From positions 104,782,001 to 104,846,000 of the forward strand of contig NC_086097.1 in NCBI RefSeq assembly GCF_963921235.1: a stretch of 64,000 nt of DNA, given 5' to 3'. The stretch comes from Mobula hypostoma (Eukaryota). The notes under the pieces are model-generated. The model had not been told where the DNA came from, did no database searches, and saw nothing but the letters and a program-made list of their open reading frames with translations. Numbering within the stretch: the first letter of the stretch is position 1; every line of letters starts with the position of its first letter. Of the stretch, positions 31,151 through 64,000 are shown piece by piece. A program made the translations under genes and the position numbers.

Positions 31151-31683
31151 TACCTCTTCCTAGAGATGCTGCCTGACCTGCTGTGTTCACCAGCAACTTT
31201 GATAAAGTCTGTTGCTTGAATTTCCAGCATCCGCAGAATTCCTCTTGTTTGCGTCATAACACTTCTAGTGAGGTTTCACCGGTGCTTTATAAAATGTCAA
31301 CATTACATTCTTGCTTTTATATTCTAGTTCTCTTGAAATGAATGCTAACATTGCATTTCTCTTCCTCACCACAGACTCTGTATGTAAATTAACCTTTAGG
31401 GAATCTTGCACAAGGATTCCCAAGTCCCTTTGCGCCTCATGTTTTTGTATTTTCTCTCCATTTAGAAAATAGTCAGCCCTTTCATTTCTTCTACCAAATT
31501 GCATGACCATACACTTTCCGACACTATTAAATCTGCCATTTCTTTGCCCATTTTCTTAATCAGTTTAAGTCCTCCTGTACCCTCTCTACTGCCTCAAAAC
31601 TACCTGCCCTGTCCACCTATCTTTGTATCGTCTGCAAGCTTTGCAACAAAGCCATCGATTCCGTCATCCAAATCATTGGCATA

Positions 31684-31889
31684 CAGTGCCTACAAAAAGT
31701 ATTCTCCCGCCCCCCCCCCCCGCCACCCCACCTGGAAGTTTTCATGTTTTATTGTTTTCACTTTGACATGAAAGAGTCTTTTTCTGTTGATCAGTGTCAA
31801 AAAAGCCAAATTAAACCCACTGTGATTCAGTGGTGTAAAACAATAAAAAATGAAATTTATAAGGGGGTGAATACTTTTTATAGGCACTG
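31684..31889. mobile_element. Tc1/mariner-derived MITE, 206 bp
   Basis: TA TSD (31682-31683 and 31890-31891). TIRs CAGTGCCTACAAAAAGTATTC and GAATACTTTTTATAGGCACTG, with further imperfect inverted similarity inward (ttcatgttttattgttt and aaacaataaaaaatgaa). Confidence 0.88.
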
Positions 31890-32649
31890 TATAACATAAA
31901 AGAATCATTCTGAACACAGACCACTAATCATTAGCAGCCAGTCTTTGACTCCTGCCTATCAGCCACTGCTTTATCCATGCTAGAATATTTCTTGTAATAC
32001 CATGGGCTCGTAGCTTGTTAAGCAGCCTCATGTGTGGCACCTTGTAAAAGGTCTTTTGAAAATCCAAGTGCACAACATCAACTAATTCTCCTTTGTCTAT
32101 CTTGCTTGTTATTTCTTCAAGGAATTCCAACAAATTTGTCAGGCAAGATTTTCCCTTGAGGAAACCATGCTGACTGTGGTCTGTTTTATCATGTGCCTCC
32201 AAGTACCCCAAAACTACATCTTCAACTCCAACATCTTCCCAACCACTGAGGTCAGACTAACTGACCTATAGTTTCCTTTCTTCTGCCTCTCTCTCTCCTT
32301 GAAGAGTGGAGTGACATTTGCAATTTTCTAGTCTTCTGGAACCATTCCAGAATCTAGTGATTCTTGAAAGATCTTTACTAATCCTCCACAATCTCTTTAG
32401 CCACCTCTTTCAGAACCCTGGGGTGTACACCATCTGGTCCAGGTGACTTATCTACCTTCAGACCTTTTCAGTTTCCTAAGAATCTTCTTTCTAGTAATGG
32501 TAACTTCACATACTTCATGACTTCTACCTGGAACTTCTACCATACTGTTAGTGTCTTCCACAGTGAAGACTGATGCAAAATATTCAGTTTGTCCACCACT
32601 TCCTTGTCCCCCATTACTATCTCTCCAACATCATTTTCCAGTGGTCCAA

Positions 32650-46466: not shown

Positions 46467-47213
46467 CTTTAGGGGATCCTGCACGAGGACTTCCCAAGTG
46501 TCTCTGCACCTCAGTTTTTTGTATGTTCTCTCCATTTCGAAAATAGTCAGCTCTTTCATTTCTTCTACCAAAGTATATGACCATACACTTCCCGACACTG
46601 TATTTCATCTGACATTTCTTTGCTCGTTCTATAATCTAAGTCCTTCTATAGCTTCTCTATTTCCTCAAAACAACCTGCCCTCCACCTATCTTTATCATCG
46701 GTAATCTTTGAACAAACCCATTAATTCTATCATCAAATTTATTGGCATATAATGTAAAATGAATCAGTCCCAACACAGACCCCTGTGGAACACCACTAGT
46801 CACTGGGATTCCAACAGAAAAGTCTCCCTTTATTCCCACACTTTGCCTCCTACCAATCAGCCACTGCTTTATCCATGCTAGAATCTTTCCTGTAATACCG
46901 TGGCTTGTTAAGCAGCCTCATGTGTGGCATCTTCTCAAATGCCTACTGAAGATCCAAATACAAACCATCGACCAGTACTCCTCTGTGACCCTGCTTGTAA
47001 TTTCTTCAAAGAATTCCGACAGATTTTTCAGGCAATATTTTCCTCTGAGGAAACCATGCTGACTGCAGCCTATTCAAGTGCCCCAAAACCACATCTTTAA
47101 TAATTGACTCCAACATCTTTAAATTGTCTATTCCCCTGTCTCTACCTTTGCCTTCCTTATAATCGTTGTGTGGCTAGTACTTGGTGATTGAGTAATGTGT
47201 TTTAAATTTTCAG

Positions 47214-47418
47214 GGGAAGTTTCTGATTCAGAAAGGAGTAGCTCATCTTCAAGCTCTGAGTCTTCATCCTCGTCAGAAGAGGAGGAGTTCCACGATGGCT
47301 ATGATGATGACCTCATGGGTGATGAGGAGGACAGAGCAAGGTTGGAACAAATGACTGAGAAGGAACGCGAACAAGAACTCTATAACCGGATAGAAAAACG
47401 AGAGGTGCTGAGGCGTAG
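47214..47418 (+). CDS. RTF1: RTF1 internal coding exon, equivalent to exon 4
   Basis: ttttcAG|GG acceptor and AG|GTGAGA donor. 205 nt encode (G)[67 protein letters not shown](R), the conserved RTF1 [22 protein letters not shown] segment. Phase 1 fits the upstream exon. Confidence 0.96.
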
Positions 47419-47454
47419 GTGAGATGCTGTATAGAGGATCTTTTACACTAAAGA

Positions 47455-48086
47455 ATATTACAGACTCCAAATCGGGTTTAATATCACTGGCAAATTTTGT
47501 GAAGTTTGTTGTTTGGTGGCAGCAGTACAATGCAGTATATAATAAAAAAAACTATATATTACAATAAGAAAAAAATTGCATCAAACGTTAATAAATAAGT
47601 AGTGCAAAAAGAGAGCAAATAAACAGTTGTAAGATAGTGCACATGAGTTCATTGTCCGTTCAGAAATCCAATGACAGATGGAAAGAAGCTGTTTCTAAAA
47701 TGTTGAGTGTATCTCTTCAACCCCTGTACCACCACCTTGATGGTAGCAATGAGCAGAAGGCATGACCTGAGAGATAGGATGATAGATGCATCCTTTTTGA
47801 GGCATCGACTTTGAAGATGATCCTTGATGCTGGGGAGGCTAGTGCTCGTGATGGAGCTGGCTGAGTTTGCAATTTTCTGCAGCAATTGTCGATCTTGTGC
47901 ATACCAGAAGGTGATGCAAACAGTTCGCATGCTACGTGGTACGTATGTAGAAATTTGAGTGTCTTTGGTGACATACCACTTCTCCTCAAACTCCTAGTGA
48001 AATAGTCGCTATTGTGCCTTCTCTGTAATTGCATCAAGGCCCAAGATAGATCCTCAGAGATGTTGACACCCAGGAACTTGAAACTG
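47455..48086 (-). mobile_element. Rex1/Babar-type LINE 3' fragment
   Basis: Minus ORFs with SFKFLGVNISEDLSW and SLPSIKD...FRNSFFPSVIGFLN. Confidence 0.8.
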
Positions 48087-51053
48087 CCTTGGCTGTGCCC
48101 CCATACAGTGCCTCTAAAATGTATTTCCCCCCTCCGTACAGTGCCTCCAAAATGTATTCCCCCTCTGTACAATGTCTCTAAAATGTATGCACCCCATACA
48201 GTGCATGTAAGATGTCCCCCGGTACTGTGCCTGTAAACTGTATCCCCCGTACTGTGCCTGTAAACTGTAACCCCCGTACTGTGCCTGTAAAATGTATCTC
48301 CCGTACTGTGCCTGTAAAATGTATCTCCCGTACAGTGCCTGTAAAATGTATCCCCCGTACAGTGCCTGTAAAATGTATCTCCCCCTGTACAGTGCCTGTA
48401 AAATGTATGTCCCAGGTACAGTGCCTGTAAAATGTGTCCCCCGTACAGTGCCTGTAAAATGTCCCCCGAATAGTTGCTGTAAAATGTATCCACCCGTATG
48501 GTGCCTGTAAAATGTCCCCCCCATACGACACCTGTAAAATGTATCCTCTTGTACAGTGCCTGTAAAATGTATCCCCCCGTACAGTGCCTGTAAAATGTCC
48601 CTCTGCTGAACAGTGCCTATAGAATGTATTTCGCCATATTTGTTGTAAAATGTATCCCTCCCGTACAGCGCCTGTAAAATGTATCTCTCCCCCCCCCATA
48701 CGTTCCCTGTAAAATGTCCCCCCCCGTACAGTGCCTGTAAAATGCATTCCCTCCATACGGGTCCTGTGAAATGCATTCTCCCTGTACGGGTCCTGTAAAA
48801 TGCCCCCACCTGTACAGTGCCTGTATCATGTATCCCCCCCCATATAGTGCCTGTAAAATGTATCCCCCCTGTATGGTCCCTGTAAAATGTATTCTCCCCC
48901 CCCCCCCCCCCGGTACGGTGCCTGTAAAATGTGTCTCTCTTCGCCACCCCCCCCTCCGTACAGTGCCTGTAAAATGTCCCCGTACGTGTACAGTGCCTGT
49001 AAAATGTCTCCCTGTACAGTGCCTCTTAACTGTATCCCCCCGTACAGGGCCTCTAAACTGTATCCCCACTGTACACCACCTGTAAAATTCCCCCCCAGTG
49101 CAGTCCATGTAAAATGTATTTCCCTCCCGTACAGCGCCTGTAAAATGTGTCCCCCGTACATTGCCTGTAACATGTATCTCCCCTGTACAGTGCCTGAAAA
49201 CGTTCCCCCCATACAGTGCCTCTAAACTGTATCCCCACCTGAGAGTGCCTGTAAAATGTTCCTGCCCGTACAGTGCCTTTGAAATGTATCCCCCATACAG
49301 TACCTGTAAAAAGTATCCCCCTGTACAGTACCTATAAAATGAACCCCCGTACAGTGCCTGTAAAATGACCCCCCGTACAGTGCCTGTAAAATGACCCCCC
49401 CGTACAGTGCCTGTAAAATGCATTCTCCCCAGACAGTGCCTGTATAATGCATTCCCCTGTACGGTGCCTGTAAAATGTCTTCCCCGTACAGTGCCTGTAA
49501 AATGCATTGACCCCGTACAGTGCTTGTAAAATGCATTCCCTTTTTACACTGCCTGTAACATGTATACCCCGCTTACAGTGCCTGTAAAATGTCCCCCCCA
49601 GTGCAGTGCTTGTAAAATGTATCCCCCTATACATTGCCTGTAATATGTATCCTCCCCATACAGTGCCTATAAAATGTTCCCCAGTACAGTGCCTGTAAAA
49701 TGCATTCCCCCCTGTACAGCGCCAGTAAAATGTTCCCCCCCCCGTACACTGCCTGTAACATATATACCCTGCTTACAGTGCCTGTAAAATGTCCCCTCGT
49801 ACAGTGCCTGTAAAATGTACCCAGGTACGGTACCTATAAAGTTTATTCCCCCACCCCCCATACGGTGCCTGTAAAATGTCCCCGTACCTGTACAGTGCCT
49901 GTAAAATGGCTCCCTGTACAGTGCCTCTTAGCTGTATCCCCCCCCATACAGGGCCTCTAAACTGTATCCCCCATGTACACCACCTGTAAAATCCCCCCCC
50001 CAGTACAGTCCCTGTAAAATGTATTTCCCTCCCGTACAGTGCCTGTAAAATGTGTCCCCCATACATTGCCTGTAACATGCATCTCCCCCTGTACAGTGCC
50101 TGAAGACGTCCCCCCCATACAGTGCCTCTAAACTGTATTTCCACCTGAGAGTGCCTGTAAAATGTTTCTGCCCGTGCAGTGCCTGTGAAATGTATCCCCT
50201 GTACAGTACCTGTAAAATGTATCTCCCTTACATTGCCTGTAACATGTAAACCCTCCATTCAGTGCCTGTAAAATGTTCCCCCCCCCCGCCCGTACATTGC
50301 CTGTAACATGTAACCCCTCCATTCAGTGCCTGTAAAATGTTCCCCAGTACGGTACCTATAAAGTGTATTCCCCCACCCCCCCATACGGTGCCTGTAAAAT
50401 GTCCCCGTACCTGTACAGTGCCTGTAAAATGGCTCCCTGTACAGTGTCTCTTACCTGTTCCCCCCCACCGTACAGGGCCGCTAAACTGTATCCCCCCTGT
50501 ACACCACCTGTAAAATCCCCCCCCCAGTACAGTGCCTGTAAAATGTCCCCCCCCGTACATTGCCTGTAACATGTAACCCCTCCATTCAGTACCTGTAAAA
50601 TGTCCCCCCCTGTACACTGTGTGTAACACGTATCCCCCCTGTACAGTGTCTGTGAAATGTCCCCACACCTGTACAGTACCTGTAAAATGTCCCCACACCT
50701 GTACAGTGCCTGTAAAATGTCCCCCCGTACAGTGCTTGTAAAATCTTCCCAGTACAGTACCTATAAAATGTATTCCCCCCCCATACCCCTGTACAGTGCC
50801 TGTAAACGTTCCCCCCATAGAGTGCCTCGAAACTGTATCGTCACCTGAGAGTGCCTGTAAAATGTTCCTGACCGTACAGTGCCTGTGAAATTATCCCCCG
50901 CACAGTGCCTGTAAAATGTATCCCCCTGTACAGTACCTATAAAATGTATCCCCCCCTACAGTGCCTGTAAAGTGTATCCCCCGTACATTGCCTGTAACAT
51001 GTAATCCCTCCATACAGTGCCTGTAAAATGTCCCCCCCCCCCCCCCCCCGGTA

Positions 51054-52983
51054 ACCTGTGCTGTACCGGGCAGAAAGATCTGCTGAGGGATACCATCGCC
51101 TACGTGCAGGACAAGAGGGTGGACGCCTGCCTGGTCAGCTTGGACCAGGAGAAAGCCTTCGACAGGATATCGCACACGTACATGGCGGATGTGCTCTCCA
51201 AAATGGGATTTGGGGAGGGAATCCGGAATTGGATTAGACTACTCTACACAGACATCCGTAGTGCAGTCCAGGTCAACGGGTGGGAAACAGACAGCTTCCC
51301 CATCAGGTCTGGAGACAGGCAGGGCTGTCCCATCCCCCCTGTCTTGTTTGTCTGCTGCATAGAACCCTTTGTGGAAGCCATCAGGAGGGATGAGGGCATA
51401 AGGGGGGTGACGCTGCCAGGCAGTGGAGGGACCCAAGTGAAAACCTCCCTGTACATGGACGACGTCACCGTCTTCTGCTCTGATCCGAGGTCCGTTCGCA
51501 GGTTGATTGGCACCTGCGAACAGTTCGAGCTAGCGTCGGGGGCCAGGGTCAACCGCACGAAGAGCGAAACCATGCTCTTCGTCAACTGGCCCGACCGATC
51601 CAGTGTCCCCTTCACCATCAGGTCTGACCACGTGAAGGTGTTGGGGATCTGGTTCGGAGGGGCTGAGGCGTGCGACAAGAACTGGCAGGAGCAGACTGCC
51701 AAGGTGAAACAGAAACTGGGACTGTGGGAGGGCGCTCCCTGTTGATAACGGGCAAGAACCTGGTCATCAGGTGTGAGGTACTCTCAGGGCTGCTGTACTT
51801 GGCGCAGGTCTGGCCCGTCCCTCGCTCCTACAGCTCGGAAATCACCCGGGCTGTCTTCAGATTCGTCTGGGGATCCAAGATGGAGCGGGTGAGACGGACC
51901 GTCATGCACAAGTCCCTGGACAACGGGGGCAAGAACGTCCCCAATGTCGCCCTCACCCTGATGGCCATCTTCGTATGTGGCTGCATCAGGTTGTGTGTGG
52001 AACCCAGGTATGTGGGCACCAAGTACCACTATGTGCCCAGGTTCTACCTGTCGCCCTGGCTACGAAGGATGGGTCTGGCCCCACTCCCGCGCAACGCCCC
52101 AGTCAGCTGGTCATTGCCGGCATACCTGTCCTATGTAGCAAAATTCTTCCAGGAGAACGCCTTTGACCACAGGGCCATCAGGCAGTGGTCGGCACGTAGT
52201 GTCCTGCAGGCACTGCAGGAGAAGGACGTGATGGACACAGTGGGGTGGTTCCCTGAGCAGACTGTCCAGTTCATCTGGCAAAATGCCTCATCGCCAGATC
52301 TCACCAACAGGCATCAAGACCTCGCCTGGCTGGCGGTGAGAGGGGCCCTCCCAGTCAGAGCCCTCCTGTACGCCCGGAACATCGTCTCCGCAACCCACTG
52401 CCCACGGGAGGACTGCAGTGAGGAGGAGTCTGTGACCCACCTCTTTGCACACTGCCAGTTCGCAAAGAGGGTGTGGAGGAGGATGGACGGGCTAGTGTCA
52501 CGTTTTATCCCCAGCAGCTGCGTAACAGAGGACTCTCTGATCTACGGGCTGTTCCCGGGGGCGCACACGGAGACCAACATCCGGTGCTGCTGGCAGGAAA
52601 GACGCTCTTTGGTCAGCCCGAAACTTGATGATCTACCAGCACATGGAGATGTCCGTGGGAGAATGCTGCCGACTGGCACATTCTCGGCTGCAGGAGTACG
52701 TGCTGAGGGACGCACTGAAACTTGGTGCAGCCACCGCAAGGGCCCGGTGGGGAAGGACCACGGTATAGGTTTCTCCACCCGTGGGAGTGAGAGGGGTCGG
52801 TGGGCGGGGAGTATACCCCTCAACAATGACATGGTAAGCTGAACTACTGGAGTGCCACGTGGGTGGCTATAAATATGGATATGTACTGACTATAATAGAA
52901 ATGTATGTAAAGGATGAAAAGTTATTGAATGGTTTATTGTATATATTTATTTTTGAATAAGTATATTTTGAAATAAAAAAAAA
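51054..52983 (+). mobile_element. 5'-truncated L1/Tx1-clade retrotransposon ORF2 with poly(A)
   Basis: TCAVPGRKI, SLDQEKAFDRISH, RQGCP, LYMDDV and a C-terminal CCHC finger CPREDC..ESVTHLFAHC. Frameshifts. AT-rich 3' UTR ending AATAAAAAAAAA at 52983. Confidence 0.9.
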
Positions 52984-54966
52984 CACGTATCCCCCCAGTA
53001 CAGTGCCTGTAAAATGACCCCCCCATACAGTGCCTGTATAATGCATTCCCCTGTATGGTGCCTGTAAAATGTCTTCCCCGTACAGTGCCTGTAAAATGCA
53101 TTCCCCTCATACAGTGCCTGTAAAATGTATTCCTTCCCTGTACAGCGCCAGTAAAATGTCCCCCCCCCCCCGTACACTGCCTGTAACATATATACCCTGC
53201 TTACAGTGCCTGTAAAATGTCCCCTCGTACAGTGCCTGTAAAATGTACCCCGGTACGGTACCTATAAAGTGTATTCCCCCACCCCCCATACGGTGCCTGT
53301 AAAATGTCCCGTACCTGTAAAATGTTCCCGTACCTGTACAGTGCTTCTTAGATGTATTCTTCCCCCCCCCCACACAGGGCCTCTAAACTGTATCCCCCCT
53401 GTACACCACCTGTAAAATTCCCCCCCAGTACAGTCCCTGAAAAATGTATTTCCCTCCTGTACAGTGCCTGTAAAATGTGTCCCCCGTACATTGCCTGTAA
53501 CATGTATCTCCCCCTGTACAGTGCCTGAAGACGTTCTCCCCCATACAGTGCCTCTAAACTGTATCCCTACCTGAGAGTGCCTTTAAAAGGTTTCTGCCCG
53601 TGCAGTGCCTGTGAAATGTATCCCCTGTACAGTACCTGTAAAATGTATCCCCCGTACATTGCCTGTAACATGTAACCCCTCCATTCAGTGCCTGTAAAAT
53701 GTATCCCCCATACAGTGCCTGTAAAATGTATCTCCCATACAGTGCCTGTGAAATGTATCCTCCTGTAGAGTACCTGTAAAATGTATCCCCCACTACAGTG
53801 CCTGTAAAATGTCTCCACACCTGTACAGTGCCTGTAAAATGTCCCCCCCCCCATGCAGTGCTTGGAAAATGTGCTCCCATATAGTGCCTGTAAATGCATT
53901 TCCCCCTGTACAGCGCCAGTAAAATTTATTCCTTCCCTGTACAGCGCCAGTAAAATGTTCCCCCTCCCGTACACTGCCTGTAACATATACCTTGCTTACA
54001 GTACCTGTAAAATGTTCCCCAATACAGGGCCTGTAAAATGTACCCTGGTACGGTACCTATAAAGAGTATTCCCCCACCCACCATACGGTGCCTGTAAAAT
54101 GTCCCCGTACCTGTACAGTGTCTGTAAAATGGCTCCCTGTACAGTGCCTCTTAGCTGTATCCCCCCTGTACACCACCTGTAAAATTCCCCCCCCTGTACA
54201 GTCCCTGTAAAATGTCCCCCTCCGTACATTGCCTGTAACATGTAACCCCTCCATTCAGTGCCTGTAAAATGTCCACCCCCGTGCAGTACCTGTAAAATGT
54301 CTCCCCCGTACACTGTGTGTAACACATATCCCCCTGCCCCGTGCAGTGCCTGTGAAATGTCCCCACACCCGTACAGTGCCTGTAAAATGTCTCCACACCT
54401 GTACAGTGCCTGTAAAATGCCCCCCCCGTACAGTGGTTGTAAAATCTTCCCAGTACAGCACCTATAAAATGTATTCCCCCCCACACCCCTGTACAGTGCC
54501 TGTAAAATGTCTCCCTGTACAGTGCCTCTTAGCTGTATCCCCACATACAGTGCCTGTGAAATGTATCCTACTGTACAGTACCTGTAAAATGTATCCCCCC
54601 TACAGTGCCTGTAAAATGTATCCCCCCATACAGTGCCTGTAAAATGACCCCCGTACAGTGCCTGTAAAATGTTCCCCCGTACAGTACCAGTAAAACGACC
54701 CCCCCCCCCGTACGGTGCCAATAAAATGTCCTCCCGTACGGTGCCTGTAAAATGTATCCCCCCTGTACGGTCCCTGTAAAATGTATCTCCCCGGTACGGT
54801 CCCTGTAAAATGTATCTACCCCGTACTGTCCCTGTAAAATGTATCTACCCCGTGTGGTCCCTGTAAAATGTGTCCACCTGTACGGTCTCTGTAAAATGTC
54901 CCCCGGTAAGGTGCCTGTAAAATGTGTCCCCCACCCCCCCGAACAGTGCCTGTAAAATGTCCACCC

Positions 54967-55174
54967 CGGGCCGGGCCGATTTGGTTAACGAATTGTCCCG
55001 GCCAGGTTGGTTAACGAATTGCCATGGCCGGGTAGGTTAACCAATTGCCAGATGCAGCTTGGTTAACGAATTGTCCGGTCGAGTTGGTGCACGAATTGCC
55101 AGGACAGGGTTGGGTAGTCCATTGTCCGTTCTCAGATGCTTAACGAATTGGCAGGGCCAGAGCGGTTACCGAAT
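54967..55174 (+). repeat. Short unrelated tandem repeat, ~26-bp period, core GGTTAACGAATTG
   Basis: AACGAATTG or a variant at ~54987, 55013, 55039, 55065, 55090, 55142 and 55168. Confidence 0.8.
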
Positions 55175-58100
55175 TGTATCTCCCCGGTACAGTCCCTGTA
55201 AAATGTATCTACCCCGTACTGTCCCTGTAAAATGTATCTACCCCGTGTGGTCCCTGTAAAATGTGTCCACCTGTACGGTCTCTGTAAAATGTCCCCCGGT
55301 AAGGTGCCTGTAAAATGTGTCCCCCACCCCCCCGAACAGTGCCTGTAAAATGTCCACCCGTACAGTGCCTGTAAAATGTTCCCACACCTGTACAGTGCCT
55401 GTAAATTGCCCCCCGTACAGTGTGTATATAATGTATCCCCCCATACAGTACCTGTAAAATGTCCCCCCCCGTACACTGTGTGTAACACGTTTCCCCCCCG
55501 TACAGTGTCTGTGAAATGTCCCCACACCTGTACAGTGCCTGTAAAATGTCTCCCTGTACAGTGCCTCTTAGCTGTAACCCCCCGTATTGGGCCTCTAAAC
55601 TGTATCCCCCCTTAACACCACCTGTAAAATCCCCCCCCAGTACAGTCCCTGTAAAATGTATCCTCCCGTACAGTGCCTGTAAAATGTATCGCCCCATACA
55701 TTGCGTGTAAAATATACCCCCCCATATATTGCCTGTAAATTGTTTCCTCCCGTTCAGTGCCTGTAAAATGTATCCCCCTGTACAGTGCCTGTAAAATGTA
55801 TCCCCCTGTACAGTGCCTGTAAAATGTATCCCCCGTACAGTGCCTGTAAAATGTATCCCCCGTACAGTGCCTGTAAAATGTATTCACCCGTACAGTGCCT
55901 GTAAAATGTATCCACCCATACAGTGCCTGTAAAATGTATCCCCTGTACAGTGTCTGTAAAATGTATCCCCCTCCGTATATTGGAACATGTAACCCCTCCA
56001 TACAGTTCCTGTAAAATGCCCCCCCCATGCAGTACCTGTAAAATGTCCTCCCCATACGGTGCCTGTAAAATGTCCTGCTTCGTACACTAACACGTATCCC
56101 TCCCCCCGTACAGTGTCTGTGAAATGACCTCACACCTGTACAGTGCCTGTAAAATGTCCCCCCCGTACAGTGCTTGTAAAATCTTCCCAGTACAGTACCT
56201 ATAAAATGTATTCCCCCCACATCCCTGTACAGTGCCTGTAAAATGTCTCCACACCTGTACCGTGACTGTAAAATGCCCCCCATGCTGTGCCTGTAAAATG
56301 TACCCCCCCCCGTGCTGTGCCTGTAAAATGTCACCCCCGTACAGTGCGTCTAAACCGTATCCCCCCCACCATACGGTGCCTCTAAGCTGTATTCTCTGCC
56401 TGATAGTGCCTGTAGAATGTTCTCGCTGGTACAGTGCCTGTAAAATATCCCCCCATACACTGCCTGTACAAATGTCCCCCCCCGCCCAGTACAGTGCCTA
56501 TGAAATGTCTGTGTCCCCTGGTTAAGTGTCTGTAAAAATGTCTCCTCCACCCGTACAGTGCCACTAAACTGAATCCCCCCATACAGTACCTGTAAAATGA
56601 CCCCACCCCATACAGTGTCTGTAAAATGTATCTCCTGTACAGTGCCTGTAAAATGTTCCCCCTGCCATACAGTGCCTTAAAATGTCATCCTGTACAGTGC
56701 CTATAAAATATATTTCCTCCTGTGCATGGCTATAAAACGTATCTCCTGTACAGTGCCTGTAAAATGTTCCCCACACCCATCCAATACCTGTAAAATGTAT
56801 TTTCCCCGCCGTACGGTGCCTGTAAAATGTATTCTTCCCCCATACAACGCCTGTAAAATGTATTCCCCCCCCCCTACACTGCCTGTAACATGTATCCCCT
56901 GCTTACGGTGCCAGTAAAACGTCCCCCGGTACGGTGCCAGTAAAACGTCCCCCCGTACGGTGCCTGTAAAATGTATCACCCCCCCCCCCCGTACAGTCCC
57001 TGTAAAATGTCTCCCTGTTAAGGTGCCTGTAAAATGTGTTCCCCCCCCCCGAACAGTGCCTGTAAAATGTCCACCCGTACAGTGCCTGTAAAATGGCTCC
57101 CTGTACAGTGCCTCTTAGCTGTATCCCCCCCCATACAGGGCCTCTAAACTGTAGCCCCCCTGTACATCCCCTGTAAAATCCCCCCCCCAGTACAGTCCCT
57201 TTAAAATATATTTCCCTCCCGTACAGTGCCTGTAAAATGTGTACCCCGTATATTGCCTGTAACATGTATCTCCCCCGTACAGTGCCTCTAAACTGTATCC
57301 CCACCTGAGAGTGCCTGTAAAATATTTCTGCCCGTACAGTGCCTGTGAAATGTATCCCCTGTACAGTACCTGTAAAATGTCACCCCCCGTACATTGCCTG
57401 TAACATGTAACCCCTCCATTCAGTGCCTGTAAAATGTATCCCACATACAGTGCCTGTGAAATGCATCCTACTGTACAGTACCTGTAAAATGTATCCCCCC
57501 TACAGTGCCTGTAAAATGTATGCCCCCTACAGTGCCTTTAAAATGTTTCCCCCGTACATTGCCTGTAACATGTAACTCCTCCATTCAGTGCCTGTAAAAT
57601 GTCCACCCCCCCATACATTGCCTGTGACATGTAACCCCTCCATTCAGTGCCTGTAAAATGTCCACCCCCGTGCAGTACCTGTAAAATGTCCCCCCCCCGT
57701 GCAGTACCTGTAAAATCTCCCCCCCTGTACACTGTGTGTAACACGCATCCTCCCCAGTACGGTGTCTGTGAAATGTCCCCACACCTGTACATTGCCTGTA
57801 AAATGTCTCCACACCTGTACAGTGCCTGTAAAATATCCCCCCGTACAGTGCTTGTAAAATCTTCCCAGTACAGTACCTATAAAATGTATTCCCCCCCACA
57901 CCCCTGTACAGTGCCTGTAAAATGTCTCCCTGTACAGTGCCTCTTAGCTGTATCCCCCCTGTACAGGGCCTCTAAACTGTATCCCACCTGTACACCGCCT
58001 GTAAAATCCTCCCCCAGTACAGTCCCTGTAAAATGTATTTCCCTCCTGTACAGTGCCTGTAAAATGTGTCCCCCGTACATTGCCTGTAACATGTATCTCC

Positions 58101-61100
58101 CCCTGTACAGTGCCTCTAAACTGTATTCCCACCTGAGAGTGCCTGTAAAATGTTTCTGCCCGTACAGTGCCTGTGAAATGTATCCCCTGTACAGTACCTG
58201 TAAAATGTCCCCCCCCCATGCAGTACCTGTAAAATGTCCTCCCCCGTGGAGTACCTGTAAAATGTCACCCTCGTACACTGTGTGTAATACGTATCCCCCC
58301 GCCGTACAGTGCCTGTGAAATGTATCCCCTGTACAGTACCTGTAAAATGTCCCCCCCCATGCAGTACCTGTAAAATGTCACCCTCGTACACTGTGTGTAA
58401 TACGTATCCCCCCCCGTACAGTGCCTGTAAAATGTCCCTGCCCGTACAGTGCCTGTGAAATTGTATCCCCCTTACAGTGCTTGTAAAATGTATCCCCATA
58501 CAGTGCCTGTAACATGTAACCCCTCCATTCAGTGCCTGTAAAATTCCCCCCCCAGTTCAGTACCTGTAAAATGCCCCCCTGTGCAGTACCTGTAAAATGT
58601 CCCCCCCGTACACTGTGTGTAACACGTATCCCCCCCGTACAGTGTCTGTGAAATGTCCCCACACCTGTACAGTGCCTGTAAAATGTCCCCACACCTGTAC
58701 AGTGCCTGTAAAATCTTCCCAGTACAGTGCCTGTAAAATGTATTCCCCCCCCATACCCCCGTACAGTGCCAGTAAAATGTCTCCCTGTACAATTCCTCTT
58801 AGCTGTATTCCCCCTGTACACCACCTGTAAAATGTCCCCCCCGTACACTGTGTGTAACACGTTTTCCCCTCCCAAGTGCAGTGTCCGTAAAATGACCCCC
58901 CCGTACTGTGCCTGTAAAATACATTCCCCTCCAGACAGTGCCTGTATAATGCATTCCTCTGTACAGTGCCTGTAAAATGTCTTCCCCGTCCAGTGCCTGT
59001 AAAATGCATTGACCCAGTTCAGTGGTTGTAAAATGCATTCCCTTTGTACACTGCCTGTAACATGTATACCCCGCTTACAGTGCCTGTAAAATGTCCCCCC
59101 CGCCGTACAGTGCTTGTAAAATGTGCTCCCATACAGTTCCTGTAAAATGTATCCCCCCCATGCACTGCCTGTAACATATATACCCTGCTTACAGTGCCTG
59201 TAAAATGTCCCCTCATACAGTGCCTGTAAAATGTTCCCTAGTACAGTGCCTGTAAAATGTACCCCGGTACGGTACATATAAAATATATTCCCCACCCCCC
59301 CCCATGTGGTGCCTGTAAAATGTCCCCGTACCTGTACAGTGCCTGTGAAATGTATCCCCCTTACAGTGCCTGTAAAATGTGTCCCCCGTACATTGCCTGT
59401 AACATGTATCTCCCCCTGTACAGTGCCTGAGAATGTTTTCCCCCCCCACCCCCCATACAGTGCCTCTAAACTGTATCCCCACCTGAGAGTGCCTGGAAAA
59501 TATATACGCCCGTACATTACCCATAAAATGTATCCCCTGTACAATGCCTGTAAAATGTTCCTGCCCATACAGTGCCTGTGAAATGTATCCACCTTACAGT
59601 GCCTGTAAAATGTATCCCCCCTACAGTGCCTGTAACATGTAACCCCTCCATTCAGTGCCTGTAAAATTCCCCCCCGCAGTGCAGTACCTGTAAAATGTCC
59701 TCCCCTGTGCAGTACCTGTAAAATGTCCCCCCGTACACTGTGTAACACGTATCCTCCCCTGTACAGTGTCTGTGAAATGTCTCCACACCTGTACAGTGCC
59801 TGTAAAATGTCCCCCTGTACAGTGCTTGTAAAATCTTCCCAGTACAGTACCTATAAAATGTATTCCCCACCACACCCCCGTACAGTGCCTGTACAATGTC
59901 TCCCTGTACAGTGCCTCTTAGCTGAATCCCCCCGTACAGGGCCTCTAAATGTATCCCCCCTGTACAGTGCCTGAAAACGTCCCCCCCATACAGTGCCTCT
60001 AAACTGTATCCCCACCTTGGAGTGCCTGTAAAATGTATCCACCCATACAGTGCCTGTAAAATGTATCCCCCATACATTGCCTGTAAAATATACTCACCCG
60101 TATATTGCCTGTGAAATGTATCCTCCTGTACCATGCCTGTAAAATGTATCCCCCATACAGTGCCTGTAAAATGTATCCCCCCGTATATTGGAACATGTAA
60201 CCCCTCCATACAGTTCCTGTAAAATGTCCCCCTCCCCCATGCAGTACCTGTAAAATGTCCTCCCCTTACTGTGCCTGTAAAATGTCCCCCCCCCCGTACA
60301 CTGTAACACGTATCCCTCCCCCCCGGTACAGTGTCTGTGAAATGTCCGCCCCCCCCCCCCAGTACAGTGCCTATAAAATGTCTGTGCCCCCTGGTTAAGT
60401 GTCTGTAAAATGTCTCCACCACCCGTACACTGCCTCTAAACTGAATCCCCCCATACAGTACCTGTAAAATGACCCCCCCATACAGTGTCTGTAAAATGTA
60501 TCTCCTGTACAGTGCCTGTAAAATGTCCCCCCGCCATACAGTGCCTTAAAATGTCATCCTGTACAGTGCCTATAAAATATATTTCCCCCTGTGCATAGCT
60601 GTAAAACATATCTCCTGTACAGTGCCTGTAAAATGTCCCCCCCCCGTACATTGCCTGTAGCATGTAACCCCTCCATTCAGTGCCTGTAAAATGTCCCCCT
60701 CATACATTGCCTGTAACATGTAGCCCCTCCATTCAGTGCCTGTAAAATGTATACCCCATAGAGTGCCTGTGAAATGTATCCTCCTGTACAGTGCCTTTAA
60801 AATGTATCCCCCGTACATTGCCTGTAAAATGTCCACCCCACCCGTACATTGCCTGTAACATGTAACCCCTCCATTCAGTGCCTGTAAAATGTCCACCCCC
60901 GTGCAGTTCCTGTAAAATATCCCCCCGTGCAGTACTGTAAAATGTCCCCCCTGTACACTGTGTATAACACGTATCCCCCCTACAGTGTCTGAAATGTCCC
61001 CACACCTGTACAGTGCCTGTGAAATGTCCCCACACCTGTACAGTGCCTGTAAAATATCCCCCTGTACAGTGTTTGTAAAATCTTCCCAGTACAGTACCTA

Positions 61101-64000
61101 TAAAATGTATTCCCCATACGGTGCCTGTAAAATGTCCCCCCCTCGTACACTGTAACACGTATCCCTCCCCCCGTACAGTGTCTGTGAAATGTCCTCACAC
61201 CTGTACAGTGCCTGTAAAATGTCTCCACACCTGTACCATGATTGTAAAATGCCCCCCCCCCCATGCTGTGCCTGTAAAATGTCGGCCCCGTACAATGCCT
61301 CTAAACTGTATCGCCCTCATACAGTGCCTCTAAGCTGTATTTCCTGCCTGATAGTGCCTGTAGGATGTTCCCGCTGGTACAGTGCCTGTAAAATATCCCC
61401 CCATACACTGCCTGTACAAATGCCCCCCCCCCCACAGTACAGTGCCTATAAAATGTCTGTGCCACTGTACGGTGCCTGTAAAATGTATTCTTCCCCCATA
61501 CAATGCCTGTAAAATGTATTCTCCCCCATACACTGCCTGTAACATGTATCCCCCGCTTATAATGCCTGTAAAACGTCCCCCGTACAGTGCCAGTAAAACA
61601 TCCTACCGTACGGTGCCTGTAAAATGTATCTCCCCTGTGCGGTGCCTGCAAAATGTATTCCCTCCCCCCCCCCCCCGCCCCGGTGTTGTCCCTGTAAAAT
61701 GTATCTCCCCCCACCCCCTGTACGGTCCCTGTAAAATGTATCTACCCTGTACGGTAGATGTAAAATGTAAAATGTGTTCCTCCCCCCCTGAACAGTGCCT
61801 GTAAAATGTATCCACACCTGTACAGTGCCTGTAAAATGTACCCTAGTACAGTTCCTATAAAATGTATTCCCCCCCACACCCCCGTACAGTGCCTGTAAAA
61901 TGTCTCCCTGTACAGTGCCTCTTAGGTATGTCCCCCCAGTACAGTCCCTGTAAAATGTATTTCCCTCCTGTACAGTGCCTGTAAAATGTGCCCACCGTAC
62001 ATTGCCTGTAACATGTATCTCCCGTATATTGCCTGTAACACGTAACCCCTCCATTCAGTGCCTATAAAATGTACCCCCCCATGCAGTACCTGTAAAATGT
62101 CCCCCCCATGCAGTACCTGTAAAATCTCCCCCCGTACAGAGTCTGTGAAATGTCCCCACACCTGTACAGTGCCTGTAAAATGTCTCTATACCTGTACAGT
62201 GCCTGTAAAATGTCCCCCCGTACAGTGCTTGTAAAATTTTCCCAGTATAGTGCCTGTAAAATGTACTCCAGTACAGTGCCTATAAAATGTATTCCCCCAC
62301 CCTCCCCATGGTGCCTGTAAAATGTCCCCATACACGTACAGTGCCTGAAAAAAGTCTCCCTGTACAGTGCCTCTTAGCTGTATCCCTCCGTACAGGGCCT
62401 CTAAACTGTATCCCCACTGTACACCACCTGTAAAATTCACCCCCCAGTACAGTCCCTGTAAAATGTATTTCTCTCCCGTACAGTGCCTGTAAAATGTGTC
62501 CCCCGTGCATTGCCTGTAACATGTATCTCCCCCTGTACAGTGCCTGAAGACATCCCCCCCATACAGTGCCTCTAAACTGTATCCCCACCTGAGAGTGCCT
62601 GTAAAATGTTCCTGCCCGTACAGTGCCTGTAAAATGTATCCCCTGTACATTGCCTGTAACATGTAACCCCTCCATACAGTGCCTGTAAAATGTCCCCCCC
62701 GTACACTGTGTCTAACACGTATTCCCCCCGTACAGTGTCTGTAAAATGACCCCCTGTACAGTGCCTGTAAAATGTCTTCTCCGTACAGTGCCTGTAAAAT
62801 TTCTTCCCCGTACAGTGCCTGTAAAATGCATTGACCCTGTACAGTGCCTGTAAAATGCATTGACCCCGTATAGTGCTTGTAAAATGCATTCTCTTTGTAC
62901 ACTGCCTGTAACATGTATACCCAGCTTACAGTGCCTGTAAAATGTCCCCCCGTGCAGTGCTTGTACAATGTGCTCCCATACAGTGCCTGTAACACGTATC
63001 CCCCGTACAGTGTCTGTGAAATGTCCCCACACCTGTACAGTGCCTGTAAAATGTCCCCACACCTGCACAGTGCCTGTAAAATGTCTCCCCGTACAGTACC
63101 TGTAAAATGTACCCCAGTACAATATCTACAAATGTATTCCCCCCCACACCTCCGTACACTGCCTGTAAAATGTCTCCCTGTACAGTGCCTCTAAACTGTA
63201 TCCCCACCTGGGAGTGCCTGTAAAATGTATCCGCCCGTACAGTGCCGGTAAAATGTATCCCCCCGTACATTGCCTGTAAAATATACCCCCCAGTATATTG
63301 CCTGTAAAATGTACCCCCCCCCCGTACAGTGCCTGTAAAATGCATTCCCCCCAGACAGTGCCTGTATAATGCATTCCCCTGTACGGTGCCTGTAAAATGC
63401 CTTGACCCCATACAGTGCTTGTAAAATGCATTCCCTTTGTACACTGCTTGTACCATGTATACCCTGCTTACAGTGCCTGTAAAATGTTCCCCTGTGCAGT
63501 ACTTGTAAAATGCATTCCCCTTGTACAGTGCCTGTAAAATGTATTCCTCCCCTGTACAGCGCCAGTAAAATGTGTTCCCCCCCCCACACACACTGCCTGT
63601 GACATGTATACCCTGCTTACAGTGCCTGTAAAATGTCCCCATACCTGTACAGTGCCTGTAAAACGTCTCCCTGTACAGTGTCTCCTAGCTGTATCCCCCT
63701 GTACAGGGCCTCTAAACTGTATCCCCCCTGTACACCCCCTGTAAAATTCCCCCCCCCGTACAGTCCCTGTAAAATATATTTCCCTCCCGTACAGTGCCTG
63801 TAAAATGTACCCCAGTACGGTACCTATAAAATGTATTGCCCCACCCCCCACATGGTGCATGTAAAATGTCCCCGTACCTGTACAGTGCCTCTTAGCTGTA
63901 TCCACCCGTACAGGGCCTCTAAACTGTATCCCCCCCCCCATACAGTTCCTGTAAAATGTATTTCCCTCCCGTACAGTGCCTGTAAAATGTGTCCCCCGTA

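What the first reader, a model, noticed from the sequence alone, without database searches (positions are those of the whole stretch)
48087..64000. Intronic satellite built from amplified Tc1 transposon ends (TA plus terminal TIR)
Seen: the right end of the Tc1 MITE (31861-31891), read inward with its TA, is TACAGTGCCTATAAAAAGTATTCACCCCC. The satellite unit is TACAGTGCCTGTAAAATGTATTCCCCC, and the unit at 62272-62298 (TACAGTGCCTATAAAATGTATTCCCCC) matches the MITE end at 25 of 27 positions. The match starts at the TA target dinucleotide and covers about one unit length. Established: the outer ~30 bp of Tc1/mariner TIRs hold the transposase binding and cleavage site, and CENP-B is a domesticated pogo-type transposase that binds a TIR-like box in satellite DNA. 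Inference: this is an array of several hundred Tc1 end sites inside an RTF1 intron. It could act as a transposase decoy, a landing pad for a domesticated transposase, a small-RNA source against the family, or be functionless. Only the TIR origin is supported by the sequence.
Basis: partly seen in the sequence, partly recalled or inferred. Interest (0 to 1): 0.85.

Follow-up and report, generated by a model that had tools for sequence, protein, structure and literature searches.

The report
Minisatellite grown from one transposon end
A 19-kb block of about 530 short repeats in an intron of the RTF1 gene is the tip of one dead Sleeping Beauty-type jumping gene copied over and over, with the rest of that element still attached at the block's far end; it is most likely a functionless runaway repeat, a clear example of a known way that satellites arise.

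Summary
The array runs about 3 kb past the window, and its last unit continues directly into the rest of the terminal inverted repeat and body of a full-length fossil IR/DR Tc1 whose other end is intact and TA-flanked. It is one Tc1 end expanded in place: 528 units of mostly 25-31 bp, at a single locus. The 31682-31891 'MITE' is an internally deleted copy of the same family, not the seed.

The functional ideas have evidence against them. The DR core shared by outer and inner DRs survives within one substitution in 0 of 528 units. No intact or selected transposase appeared among the 150 of 38,943 candidates scored. CpG decay, block duplications and four later insertions, one a piece of rDNA spacer, fit neutral growth.

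Unchecked scan notes report three other TE-born arrays in this genome and an IS-end array in a bacterium. Six literature searches listed no Tc1 outer-DR array, but TE- and TIR-derived satellites are known. Interest 0.33.

The parts
47214..47418 (+). RTF1 coding exon (about residues 154-221 of the RTF1 chain in PDB 9mlc); donor GT at 47419 opens a 24.5-kb intron that ends beyond the window (extended 71877, L031:7877)
47465..48087 (-). Truncated high-copy LINE fragment (L2/CR1 type by recall; class not tested) that abuts and cuts off the left edge of the array, so the original host flank is not visible. Left boundary approximate.
   Evidence: very high contig depth here, and 560-892 contigs per run of other copies leave the reference at 48087
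48088..51050 (+). Array block 1: a partial unit, then units of TA + about 27 bp of the Tc1 end; first full unit at 48104
51051..52985 (+). 5'-truncated poly(A)-ending non-LTR retrotransposon (RVT_1; Tx1/L1 type by recall), young dispersed family, frameshifted, not targeted to this repeat
   Evidence: (0 of 24 other copies have array-like 3' flanks)
52986..54965 (+). Array block 2
54966..55178 (+). About 207 bp of 26-bp subrepeats 95% identical to the 45S rDNA intergenic spacer, flanked by a 188-bp, 98.9% identical direct duplication of array (54779-54966 and 55172-55359)
55179..64000 (+). Array block 3, cut by the window end. Beyond the window, in locus L031 (window end + position): units continue to about L031:1452; a 1.15-kb insert with short inverted ends and a perfect 8-bp target duplication (hAT-like by that signature, not tested) at about L031:1453-2603; last units L031:2604-2957, the final three degenerate and keeping the ancestral A at unit position 11; then the parent Tc1 copy, L031:2929-4503, whose outer DR is the array's last unit and whose remaining TIR, broken transposase gene (antisense to RTF1) and intact far TIR + TA follow, 86% identical to the family majority.
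31682..31891 (.). Internally deleted copy of the same Tc1 family: first ~55 bp of one TIR joined at a 6-bp microhomology to the last ~140 bp of the other, TA on both sides. A relative, not the seed.

Best explanation
The array is the outer end (TA plus about 27 bp) of one dead Sleeping Beauty-type Tc1 copy, expanded in place to about 530 units with the parent element still attached, and it likely grew by ordinary repeat instability and likely has no function. Steps: (1) shown: a ~1.6-kb IR/DR Tc1 lies in the RTF1 intron, antisense to the gene, and the array is continuous with its 3'-side TIR. (2) inferred: a first duplication of the tip arose by slippage or unequal exchange at the TIR's unstable C-run, probably against a short match in the host flank that a later LINE insertion has erased. 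(3) shown as pattern, inferred as process: the dimer grew by repeated copying of multi-unit blocks while C-run slippage varied unit length; interior variants spread and edge units kept the old state. (4) inferred: the block is germline-methylated, has drifted away from the transposase binding sequence, and is spliced out with the intron. (5) shown: it has since taken up a LINE, an 8-bp-TSD DNA element and a piece of rDNA spacer.
For: Parent attached: the last unit runs into TIR position ~30 onward and the whole element, 1406/1644 identity, far end TA-flanked. Polarity TIR to array: the last 3 units have the family's A at position 11, against 6% of 509 units. Single locus: 90 of 98 exact 19-mer hits lie in this array; 7 of the other 8 are single Tc1 ends and 1 is unrelated; a 251-bp array probe hit only this locus; two tandem-end patterns gave 5 hits, none a second array (1 in this array). 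Block growth: 13 runs of 7-11 units recur at different offsets; nearest-unit distance 1.6 against 8.0 for adjacent units. C-run lability in the family: longest run 2-13 among 89 dispersed ends. CpG decay: junction CG 152, TG 148, CA 102 of 509; 15 of 20 paralog pairs with a CG differ, against 6% per site in the core. Binding core lost: 0 of 528 units within one substitution, 9 matches within two. Units are 10.9% from their majority and the attached body 10.2% from the family majority. Precedent for the architecture: PMC10702118 Discussion; seed model of Haber and Louis as summarised in PMC6947457 (passages).
Against: The seeding event cannot be read because the left flank is gone. The unit starts within 0-2 bp of the exact transposon end, and array and parent show similar divergence, which also fits a transposase-linked seed. 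A C-run just before the TA is uncommon at this family's insertion sites (3 of 89 ends), so the proposed flank match is assumed, not seen. Unit positions 1-9 differ slightly less between paralogs than 10-19 (5.2% vs 6.8%, 56 pairs), too little to call but in the direction of constraint. No binding, chromatin, small-RNA or splicing data were available, so lack of function is inferred.
Confidence: 0.74

Rival explanations
1. Transposase-linked seed, then neutral growth: the first duplication was made when the transposase cut or joined this one end (abortive single-end cleavage, or a second insertion at the same TA later deleted), and repair synthesis re-copied the tip.
For: The TIR match begins exactly at the TA and the unit holds at most 1-2 non-TIR bases. 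Array divergence (10.9%) is close to the parent's (10.2%), so growth may have begun near insertion time. Many junctions read CTG-TA-CAG, as a head-to-tail pair of ends would (TG at 148 of 509 junctions). An unchecked scan note (e1-7814003) reports another array in this genome made from the first 54-55 bases of an inserted element.
Against: No second tandem-end array among at least 761 exact ends. The TG junction is more simply CpG decay, because CA is also common. Divergence inside a tandem array is a poor clock. Two other arrays noted in this genome start from internal TE pieces (e1-7814136, e1-7814165; unchecked).
Confidence: 0.14
2. Functional end-array: a decoy for the family transposase, a platform for a domesticated transposase (CENP-B-like), or a small-RNA source carried on RTF1 pre-mRNA.
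For: Units keep the 5' cleavage-side sequence at 80-96% per position. The family is very large (38,943 first-look candidates), so it was once a burden. The array is inside a transcription unit.
Against: The core shared by outer and inner DRs is the least preserved part, and PAI binding to that core dominates in Sleeping Beauty (PMC7827188). Five long-frame copies examined are broken, with dN/dS 0.61-0.91 against the majority; the longest (C1:22.04 Mb) has its start codon out of frame and lacks most of one TIR. The copies examined are 6-10% diverged. One locus only. Only 150 of 38,943 candidates were scored, so a domesticated gene is not excluded.
Confidence: 0.06
3. Accidental effect on RTF1: hundreds of C-rich tracts followed by CAG on the sense strand act as weak splice acceptors or poly(C)-binding-protein sites, or the methylated block slows transcription.
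For: 346 of 528 units present CAG after a tract that is 75% pyrimidine; the array region fills about three quarters of a 24.5-kb intron.
Against: The tracts are only 22% T, whereas the two real acceptors visible are T-rich. The flanking exons join in frame. Nothing on transcripts was shown.
Confidence: 0.05
4. Reverse direction or chance: an existing satellite resembles the TIR by coincidence, or gave rise to it.
For: Typical units match only 19 of 27 positions, and the best of 20,000 shuffles scored one point below the observed value.
Against: The array is physically continuous with the rest of a Tc1 at the right register; edge units keep TIR states; the TIR is dispersed in hundreds of exact copies and the array was found once.
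Confidence: 0.01

Closest known systems
SINE-derived satellites (sSats) of squamates, Vassetzky, Kosushkin and Ryskov 2023, PMC10702118 (abstract, outline and Discussion read)
   Same: Tandem units copied from part of an interspersed element, with a longer terminal unit that continues into the rest of the element; loci up to about 1000 units; incomplete homogenisation; most primary duplications stay single instances.
   Different: The parent here is a cut-and-paste Tc1, the unit is the extreme tip including the TA target duplication, and the locus is single, interstitial and intronic rather than subtelomere-biased.
Tetris TIR-220 satellite of Drosophila virilis, PMC4079207 (abstract and outline read)
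   Same: kb-size arrays that grew from sequence within the TIRs of a DNA transposon.
   Different: TIR-220 is a 220-bp tandem repeat already built into a foldback element's TIRs and amplified in beta-heterochromatin. Here the family TIR has no tandem unit, the unit is 28 bp, and one copy expanded.
Xstir from the Xmix MITE and miDNA4 Tc1/mariner MITE satellites of Xenopus (seen only as described in reviews PMC9659126 and PMC12628747, passages)
   Same: DNA-transposon-linked tandem repeats in a vertebrate; miDNA4 is Tc1/mariner; Xstir is tabulated as TIR-derived.
   Different: In miDNA4 the satellite unit lies inside the MITE and is proposed to be captured and carried. Here the unit is the transposase-cleaved end itself, and the array destroys that end, so it is unlikely to ride the element.
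TE-derived minisatellites and the Haber-Louis seed model (as summarised in PMC6947457, passages; PMC3389668 seen only in a search listing)
   Same: Unit size of 25-31 bp, single locus, birth by duplication followed by slippage, conversion or unequal exchange.
   Different: At 19 kb the array is far longer than the roughly 100 units that review gives for minisatellites; the flanking short repeat could not be seen.
Sleeping Beauty IR/DR transposons (PMC7827188, passages; PDB 5cr4, 2m8e)
   Same: The parent family has 214-bp TIRs with outer and inner DRs, TA targets, an SB-type HTH and D-E spacing of 34.
   Different: All copies examined are broken. No tandem outer-DR array was listed in the searches run.

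Membership tests
IR/DR-type Tc1 (Sleeping Beauty group): parent element | TA target duplication | tested here: met
   36 of 41 dispersed ends in L002-L030 are TA-flanked; the attached copy's far end is followed by TA
IR/DR-type Tc1 (Sleeping Beauty group): parent element | About 220-bp TIRs, each with an outer and an inner DR | tested here: met
   214-bp TIR in the majority of 13 two-ended copies; a 14-17-bp core recurs at ~14-30 and ~201-217
IR/DR-type Tc1 (Sleeping Beauty group): parent element | Paired-like HTH plus DD34E transposase of about 340 aa | tested here: met
   Majority ORF 339 aa with D-E spacing 34; a natural copy hits HTH_Tnp_Tc3_2 and DDE_3 above cut-off, HTH_SB at 41.3 of 43 bits (60.6 bits in another copy) and SB100X at E 2e-73
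MITE (for 31682-31891) | Short non-coding element with both ends and TSD | tested here: met
MITE (for 31682-31891) | Amplified as a family sharing the same deletion junction | tested here: not met
   No hit at another locus spans the junction (40 of 1497 candidates scored); the junction 40-mer occurs only in the window's own locus among the 178 loci held. Not an exhaustive genome test.
TE-derived tandem repeat grown in place (sSat-type architecture) | Units match one segment of a dispersed element better than chance | tested here: met
   0 of 20,000 shuffles; only the element's tips match
TE-derived tandem repeat grown in place (sSat-type architecture) | Terminal unit continues into the rest of the parent element | tested here: met
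Squamate sSats in the strict sense | Parent is a SINE | tested here: not met
   The parent is a Tc1 DNA transposon; works like an sSat, is not one
Classical satellite DNA family | Multi-locus, abundant, homogenised by concerted evolution | tested here: not met
   One locus found; units 10.9% from their majority and adjacent units about as different as random pairs
Classical satellite DNA family | Constitutive heterochromatin or centromere location | not testable with these tools
   Intronic, at 104.8 Mb of a 256-Mb contig; CpG decay suggests methylation but chromatin was not assayed
CENP-B-box-like or decoy transposase sites | Protein-binding core preserved across units | tested here: not met
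   0 of 528 units within one substitution of the shared DR core
CENP-B-box-like or decoy transposase sites | An intact or domesticated cognate protein in the genome | tested here: inconclusive
   None intact among 5 long-frame copies examined, from 150 scored of 38,943 candidates; dN/dS 0.61-0.91
CENP-B-box-like or decoy transposase sites | Binding shown in vitro or in vivo | not testable with these tools
   needs EMSA or ChIP

The most novel reading that the evidence does not exclude
Transposition itself seeded this satellite: a cut or join at one Tc1 end was repaired by re-copying the tip from the TA inward, and the resulting dimer ran away to 19 kb. The locus stayed break-prone, later patching itself with DNA from the rDNA spacer. 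Together with the other TE-born arrays noted in this genome, it would mark a lineage in which fresh insertion junctions are a regular nursery for multi-kilobase satellites.
Probability: 0.15. Interest if true: 0.62.

Novelty: new member of a known kind. Interest (0 to 1): 0.33.

Why it matters
Most claims that a satellite came from a transposon rest on similarity alone. Here parent and array are still joined, the edge units keep the ancestral bases, and the insertion is shared with at least one related organism, so the birth and growth of a 19-kb array can be dated and ordered by comparing species. It also shows that an array of transposon ends need not be a decoy: the binding core was lost as the array grew. 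It would matter more if the seed proved to be a product of transposase cleavage, or if the array altered RTF1, a core transcription-elongation factor; neither is shown.

Tried and rejected
1. Shared A-to-T change at unit position 17 between the array and the parent's far end as proof of identity: the T form is 47 of 761 exact ends, but only 1 of 7 T-carrying copies with a readable partner end has T at both, so it looks like a recurrent mutation; counted as weak.
2. The inserted LINE as a satellite-targeting Tx1: 0 of 24 other copies have array-like 3' flanks; rejected for this family.
3. Other arrays genome-wide: three pattern searches and one DNA search found none. They use exact patterns or this array's sequence and would miss an independently diverged array.
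4. Empty site in relatives: no contig listed or 35 joined left and right flanks, so the host sequence before the TA remains unknown.
5. Array in organisms B, C, D: bins holding the first and last few units had some contig depth in all DNA runs laid (6-8 at the right edge, close to single-copy depth), and organism B holds 0.21-0.26 of the words of 47200-51050. No listed piece proves these contigs orthologous, and the bin just before the array-Tc1 junction had no cover in any of the 4 runs; a hint only.
6. Expression: no RNA holder listed; small shares in runs guessed to be RNA are no evidence either way.
7. G-quadruplex-driven instability: only 5 canonical motifs on the G-rich strand in 15.6 kb, no shuffle control run; not supported.
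8. A first majority sequence built from copies in mixed orientation was wrong inside the element and was replaced; only its TIR parts are used.
9. A literature search on the rDNA insert listed general papers on templated insertions; none was read.
Full report
Coordinates above 64000 are extended window coordinates; 64001 is the first base of locus L031 (G000:C1:104846001). The window is G000:C1:104782001-104846000.

Observation. Parsing the array with a seed taken from the array alone gave 528 units, 509 of them 20-40 bp long, mostly 25-31 bp. The quoted unit is one of the two best; the median unit matches that end at 19 of 27. The majority unit matches TA plus the TIR at 19 of the first 21 positions. 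None of 20,000 dinucleotide shuffles reached its score (33; maximum 32, mean 12.9), and along the whole 1.64-kb element only the two tips match. The similarity is real.

The family. The element at 31682-31891 found 1497 first-look candidates; 40 were scored and 30 loci fetched. Of the 29 other loci, 13 showed a second end 1.3-1.6 kb away. Their majority is 1643 bp with 214-bp TIRs, outer and inner DRs sharing a core, and an open 339-aa frame with D-E spacing 34. A natural copy hits the Tc1 HTH and DDE_3 families and SB100X. The exact 27-bp end occurs 714 times, and a variant with T at position 17 occurs 47 times. The window's short element is one TIR's first ~55 bp joined to the other's last ~140 bp at a 6-bp microhomology; no other scored hit or held locus shares that junction. 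It is a deleted copy, not a demonstrated MITE family.

The decisive result lies outside the window. The array continues to about 66957, and its last unit runs without a break into the rest of the TIR and the whole body of a Tc1 copy, 1406 of 1644 columns identical to the majority, ending in an intact far TIR and TA at 68503. The transposase gene is broken and antisense to RTF1, so the expanded end is the 3'-side outer DR. The last three units keep the family's A at unit position 11, where 82% of units have G and 6% have A. This gives the direction, TIR to array. In organism B one contig spans 53 bp of the far end and about 800 bp of unique flank with 10 differences in 852 (record 24), so the insertion predates that split.

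Setting. The array lies in an RTF1 intron from 47419 to 71877. Its left edge is cut at 48087/48088 by a truncated high-copy LINE, so the original host flank is lost. Three inserts interrupt it: a young non-LTR element at 51051-52985 that shows no preference for this repeat (0 of 24 other copies); about 207 bp of rDNA spacer subrepeats at 54966-55178 with a 188-bp flanking duplication; and a 1.15-kb element with an 8-bp target duplication at about 65453-66603. The class names L2/CR1, Tx1/L1 and hAT are from recall and were not tested.

One locus. Of 98 exact 19-mer hits, 90 are in this array; 7 of the other 8 are single Tc1 ends and 1 is unrelated. A 251-bp array probe hit only this locus. Two tandem-end patterns returned 5 hits: 1 in this array, 3 with no Tc1 match, 1 a single Tc1 end. 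These searches would miss an array that had diverged in another direction.

How it grew. Adjacent units are about as different as random pairs (8.0 vs 8.3) while each unit has a close relative elsewhere (1.6), and 13 runs of 7-11 units recur at varied offsets; 93 of 528 units sit in blocks recognisable from their context alone. That is the pattern expected from repeated copying of multi-unit blocks. The C-run varies in the array and also among 89 dispersed ends (longest run 2-13), so it is a natural slippage site. Junction dinucleotides are CG 152, TG 148 and CA 102 of 509, and 15 of 20 paralog pairs with a CG differ, against 6% per site in the core, which points to germline methylation. The first duplication cannot be observed. 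I favour slippage or unequal exchange at the C-run, following the Haber-Louis model as summarised in PMC6947457 (passages). The rival is a transposase-linked seed, because the unit starts at the TA and the array (10.9%) and parent (10.2%) are similarly diverged. Against the favoured seed, only 3 of 89 insertion sites have CCC close before the TA; that rarity would also explain why one array was found.

Function. In Sleeping Beauty the PAI subdomain dominates base-specific binding and reads the 3' core shared by all four DRs, while RED reads the 5' part of outer DRs (PMC7827188, passages). By analogy, the equivalent core here is unit positions 16-29. No unit holds it within one substitution and 9 matches hold it within two. 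Of 38,943 transposase candidates 150 were scored; five with long frames were examined, all broken, with dN/dS 0.61-0.91. A domesticated copy among the unscored ones is not excluded. Small RNAs, binding and splicing could not be tested. 346 units offer a CAG after a C-rich, T-poor tract, a possible but weak splice decoy.

Comparison with what is known. TE-derived tandem repeats, including TIR-derived ones, are reviewed in PMC9659126 (passages and section 2.2) and PMC12628747 (passages). The architecture of tandem units with one longer terminal unit continuing into the parent is described for squamate SINE satellites (PMC10702118, abstract and Discussion). Tetris TIR-220 is the closest DNA-transposon case (PMC4079207, abstract and outline). 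Searches listed no report of an array built from a Tc1 outer DR with its TA; the library lacks most subscription papers, Repbase and Dfam were not available, and no supplements were read. Earlier scan notes, all unchecked here, describe arrays born in place from a SINE, a Penelope-like element and a retrotransposon's first 54-55 bases in this same genome, and an IS-end array in a bacterium. If they hold, the seed is arbitrary and the Tc1 identity incidental.

Verdict. Real, with origin about 0.98 certain; most likely a neutral single-locus expansion of one fossil Tc1 end (0.74 for the whole account). New member of a known kind, unusually well preserved. Interest 0.33; most novel reading 0.15 probable, 0.62 if true.

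Noticed in passing
window 54966-55178; G000:C50 about 12.8-15.2 kb and its repeats: A ~207-bp piece of the 45S rDNA intergenic spacer (26-bp subrepeats, 95% identical) sits inside the array in the rRNA sense direction, without a poly(A) tail, between two 98.9% identical copies of 188 bp of array. It looks like a recent templated insertion during break repair.
   Followed up: partly
G000:C50 1-157 kb (L151-L153): Assembled 45S rDNA tandem of roughly 19-21-kb period (18S, 5.8S, 28S on the minus strand in the unit examined) at the start of contig C50, with a spacer built of 26-bp subrepeats that also occur at weaker identity on C166, C9, C12, C55 and others.
   Followed up: partly
L174:1739-2755 (G000:C1, about 22.045 Mb): A Tc1 copy with a 338-codon open frame holding the three catalytic residues, but with its start codon out of frame, most of one TIR missing and dN/dS 0.61; probably a chance open pseudogene.
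   Followed up: yes
L031:1453-2603: 1.15-kb DNA element with short inverted ends and a perfect 8-bp target duplication inserted in the array; it appears to carry further nested pieces.
   Followed up: no
window 51051-52985: Young non-LTR retrotransposon family (40 best hits 95-97% identical at the 3' end, apart from the self hit; 1347 candidates); four of the 24 other fetched copies stop matching this one at the same point (query position 1547), suggesting a subfamily boundary or a local change here.
   Followed up: partly
dispersed Tc1 ends, L002-L030, L081-L100, L154-L178: The C-run of the outer DR is hypervariable across the family (longest run 2-13), and A-to-T at position 17 is a recurrent change (47 of 761 exact ends), usually at one end only.
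   Followed up: partly
L084, L097, L085 (loci of G000): Several Tc1 copies are internally rearranged, with part of the element inverted relative to the rest.
   Followed up: no
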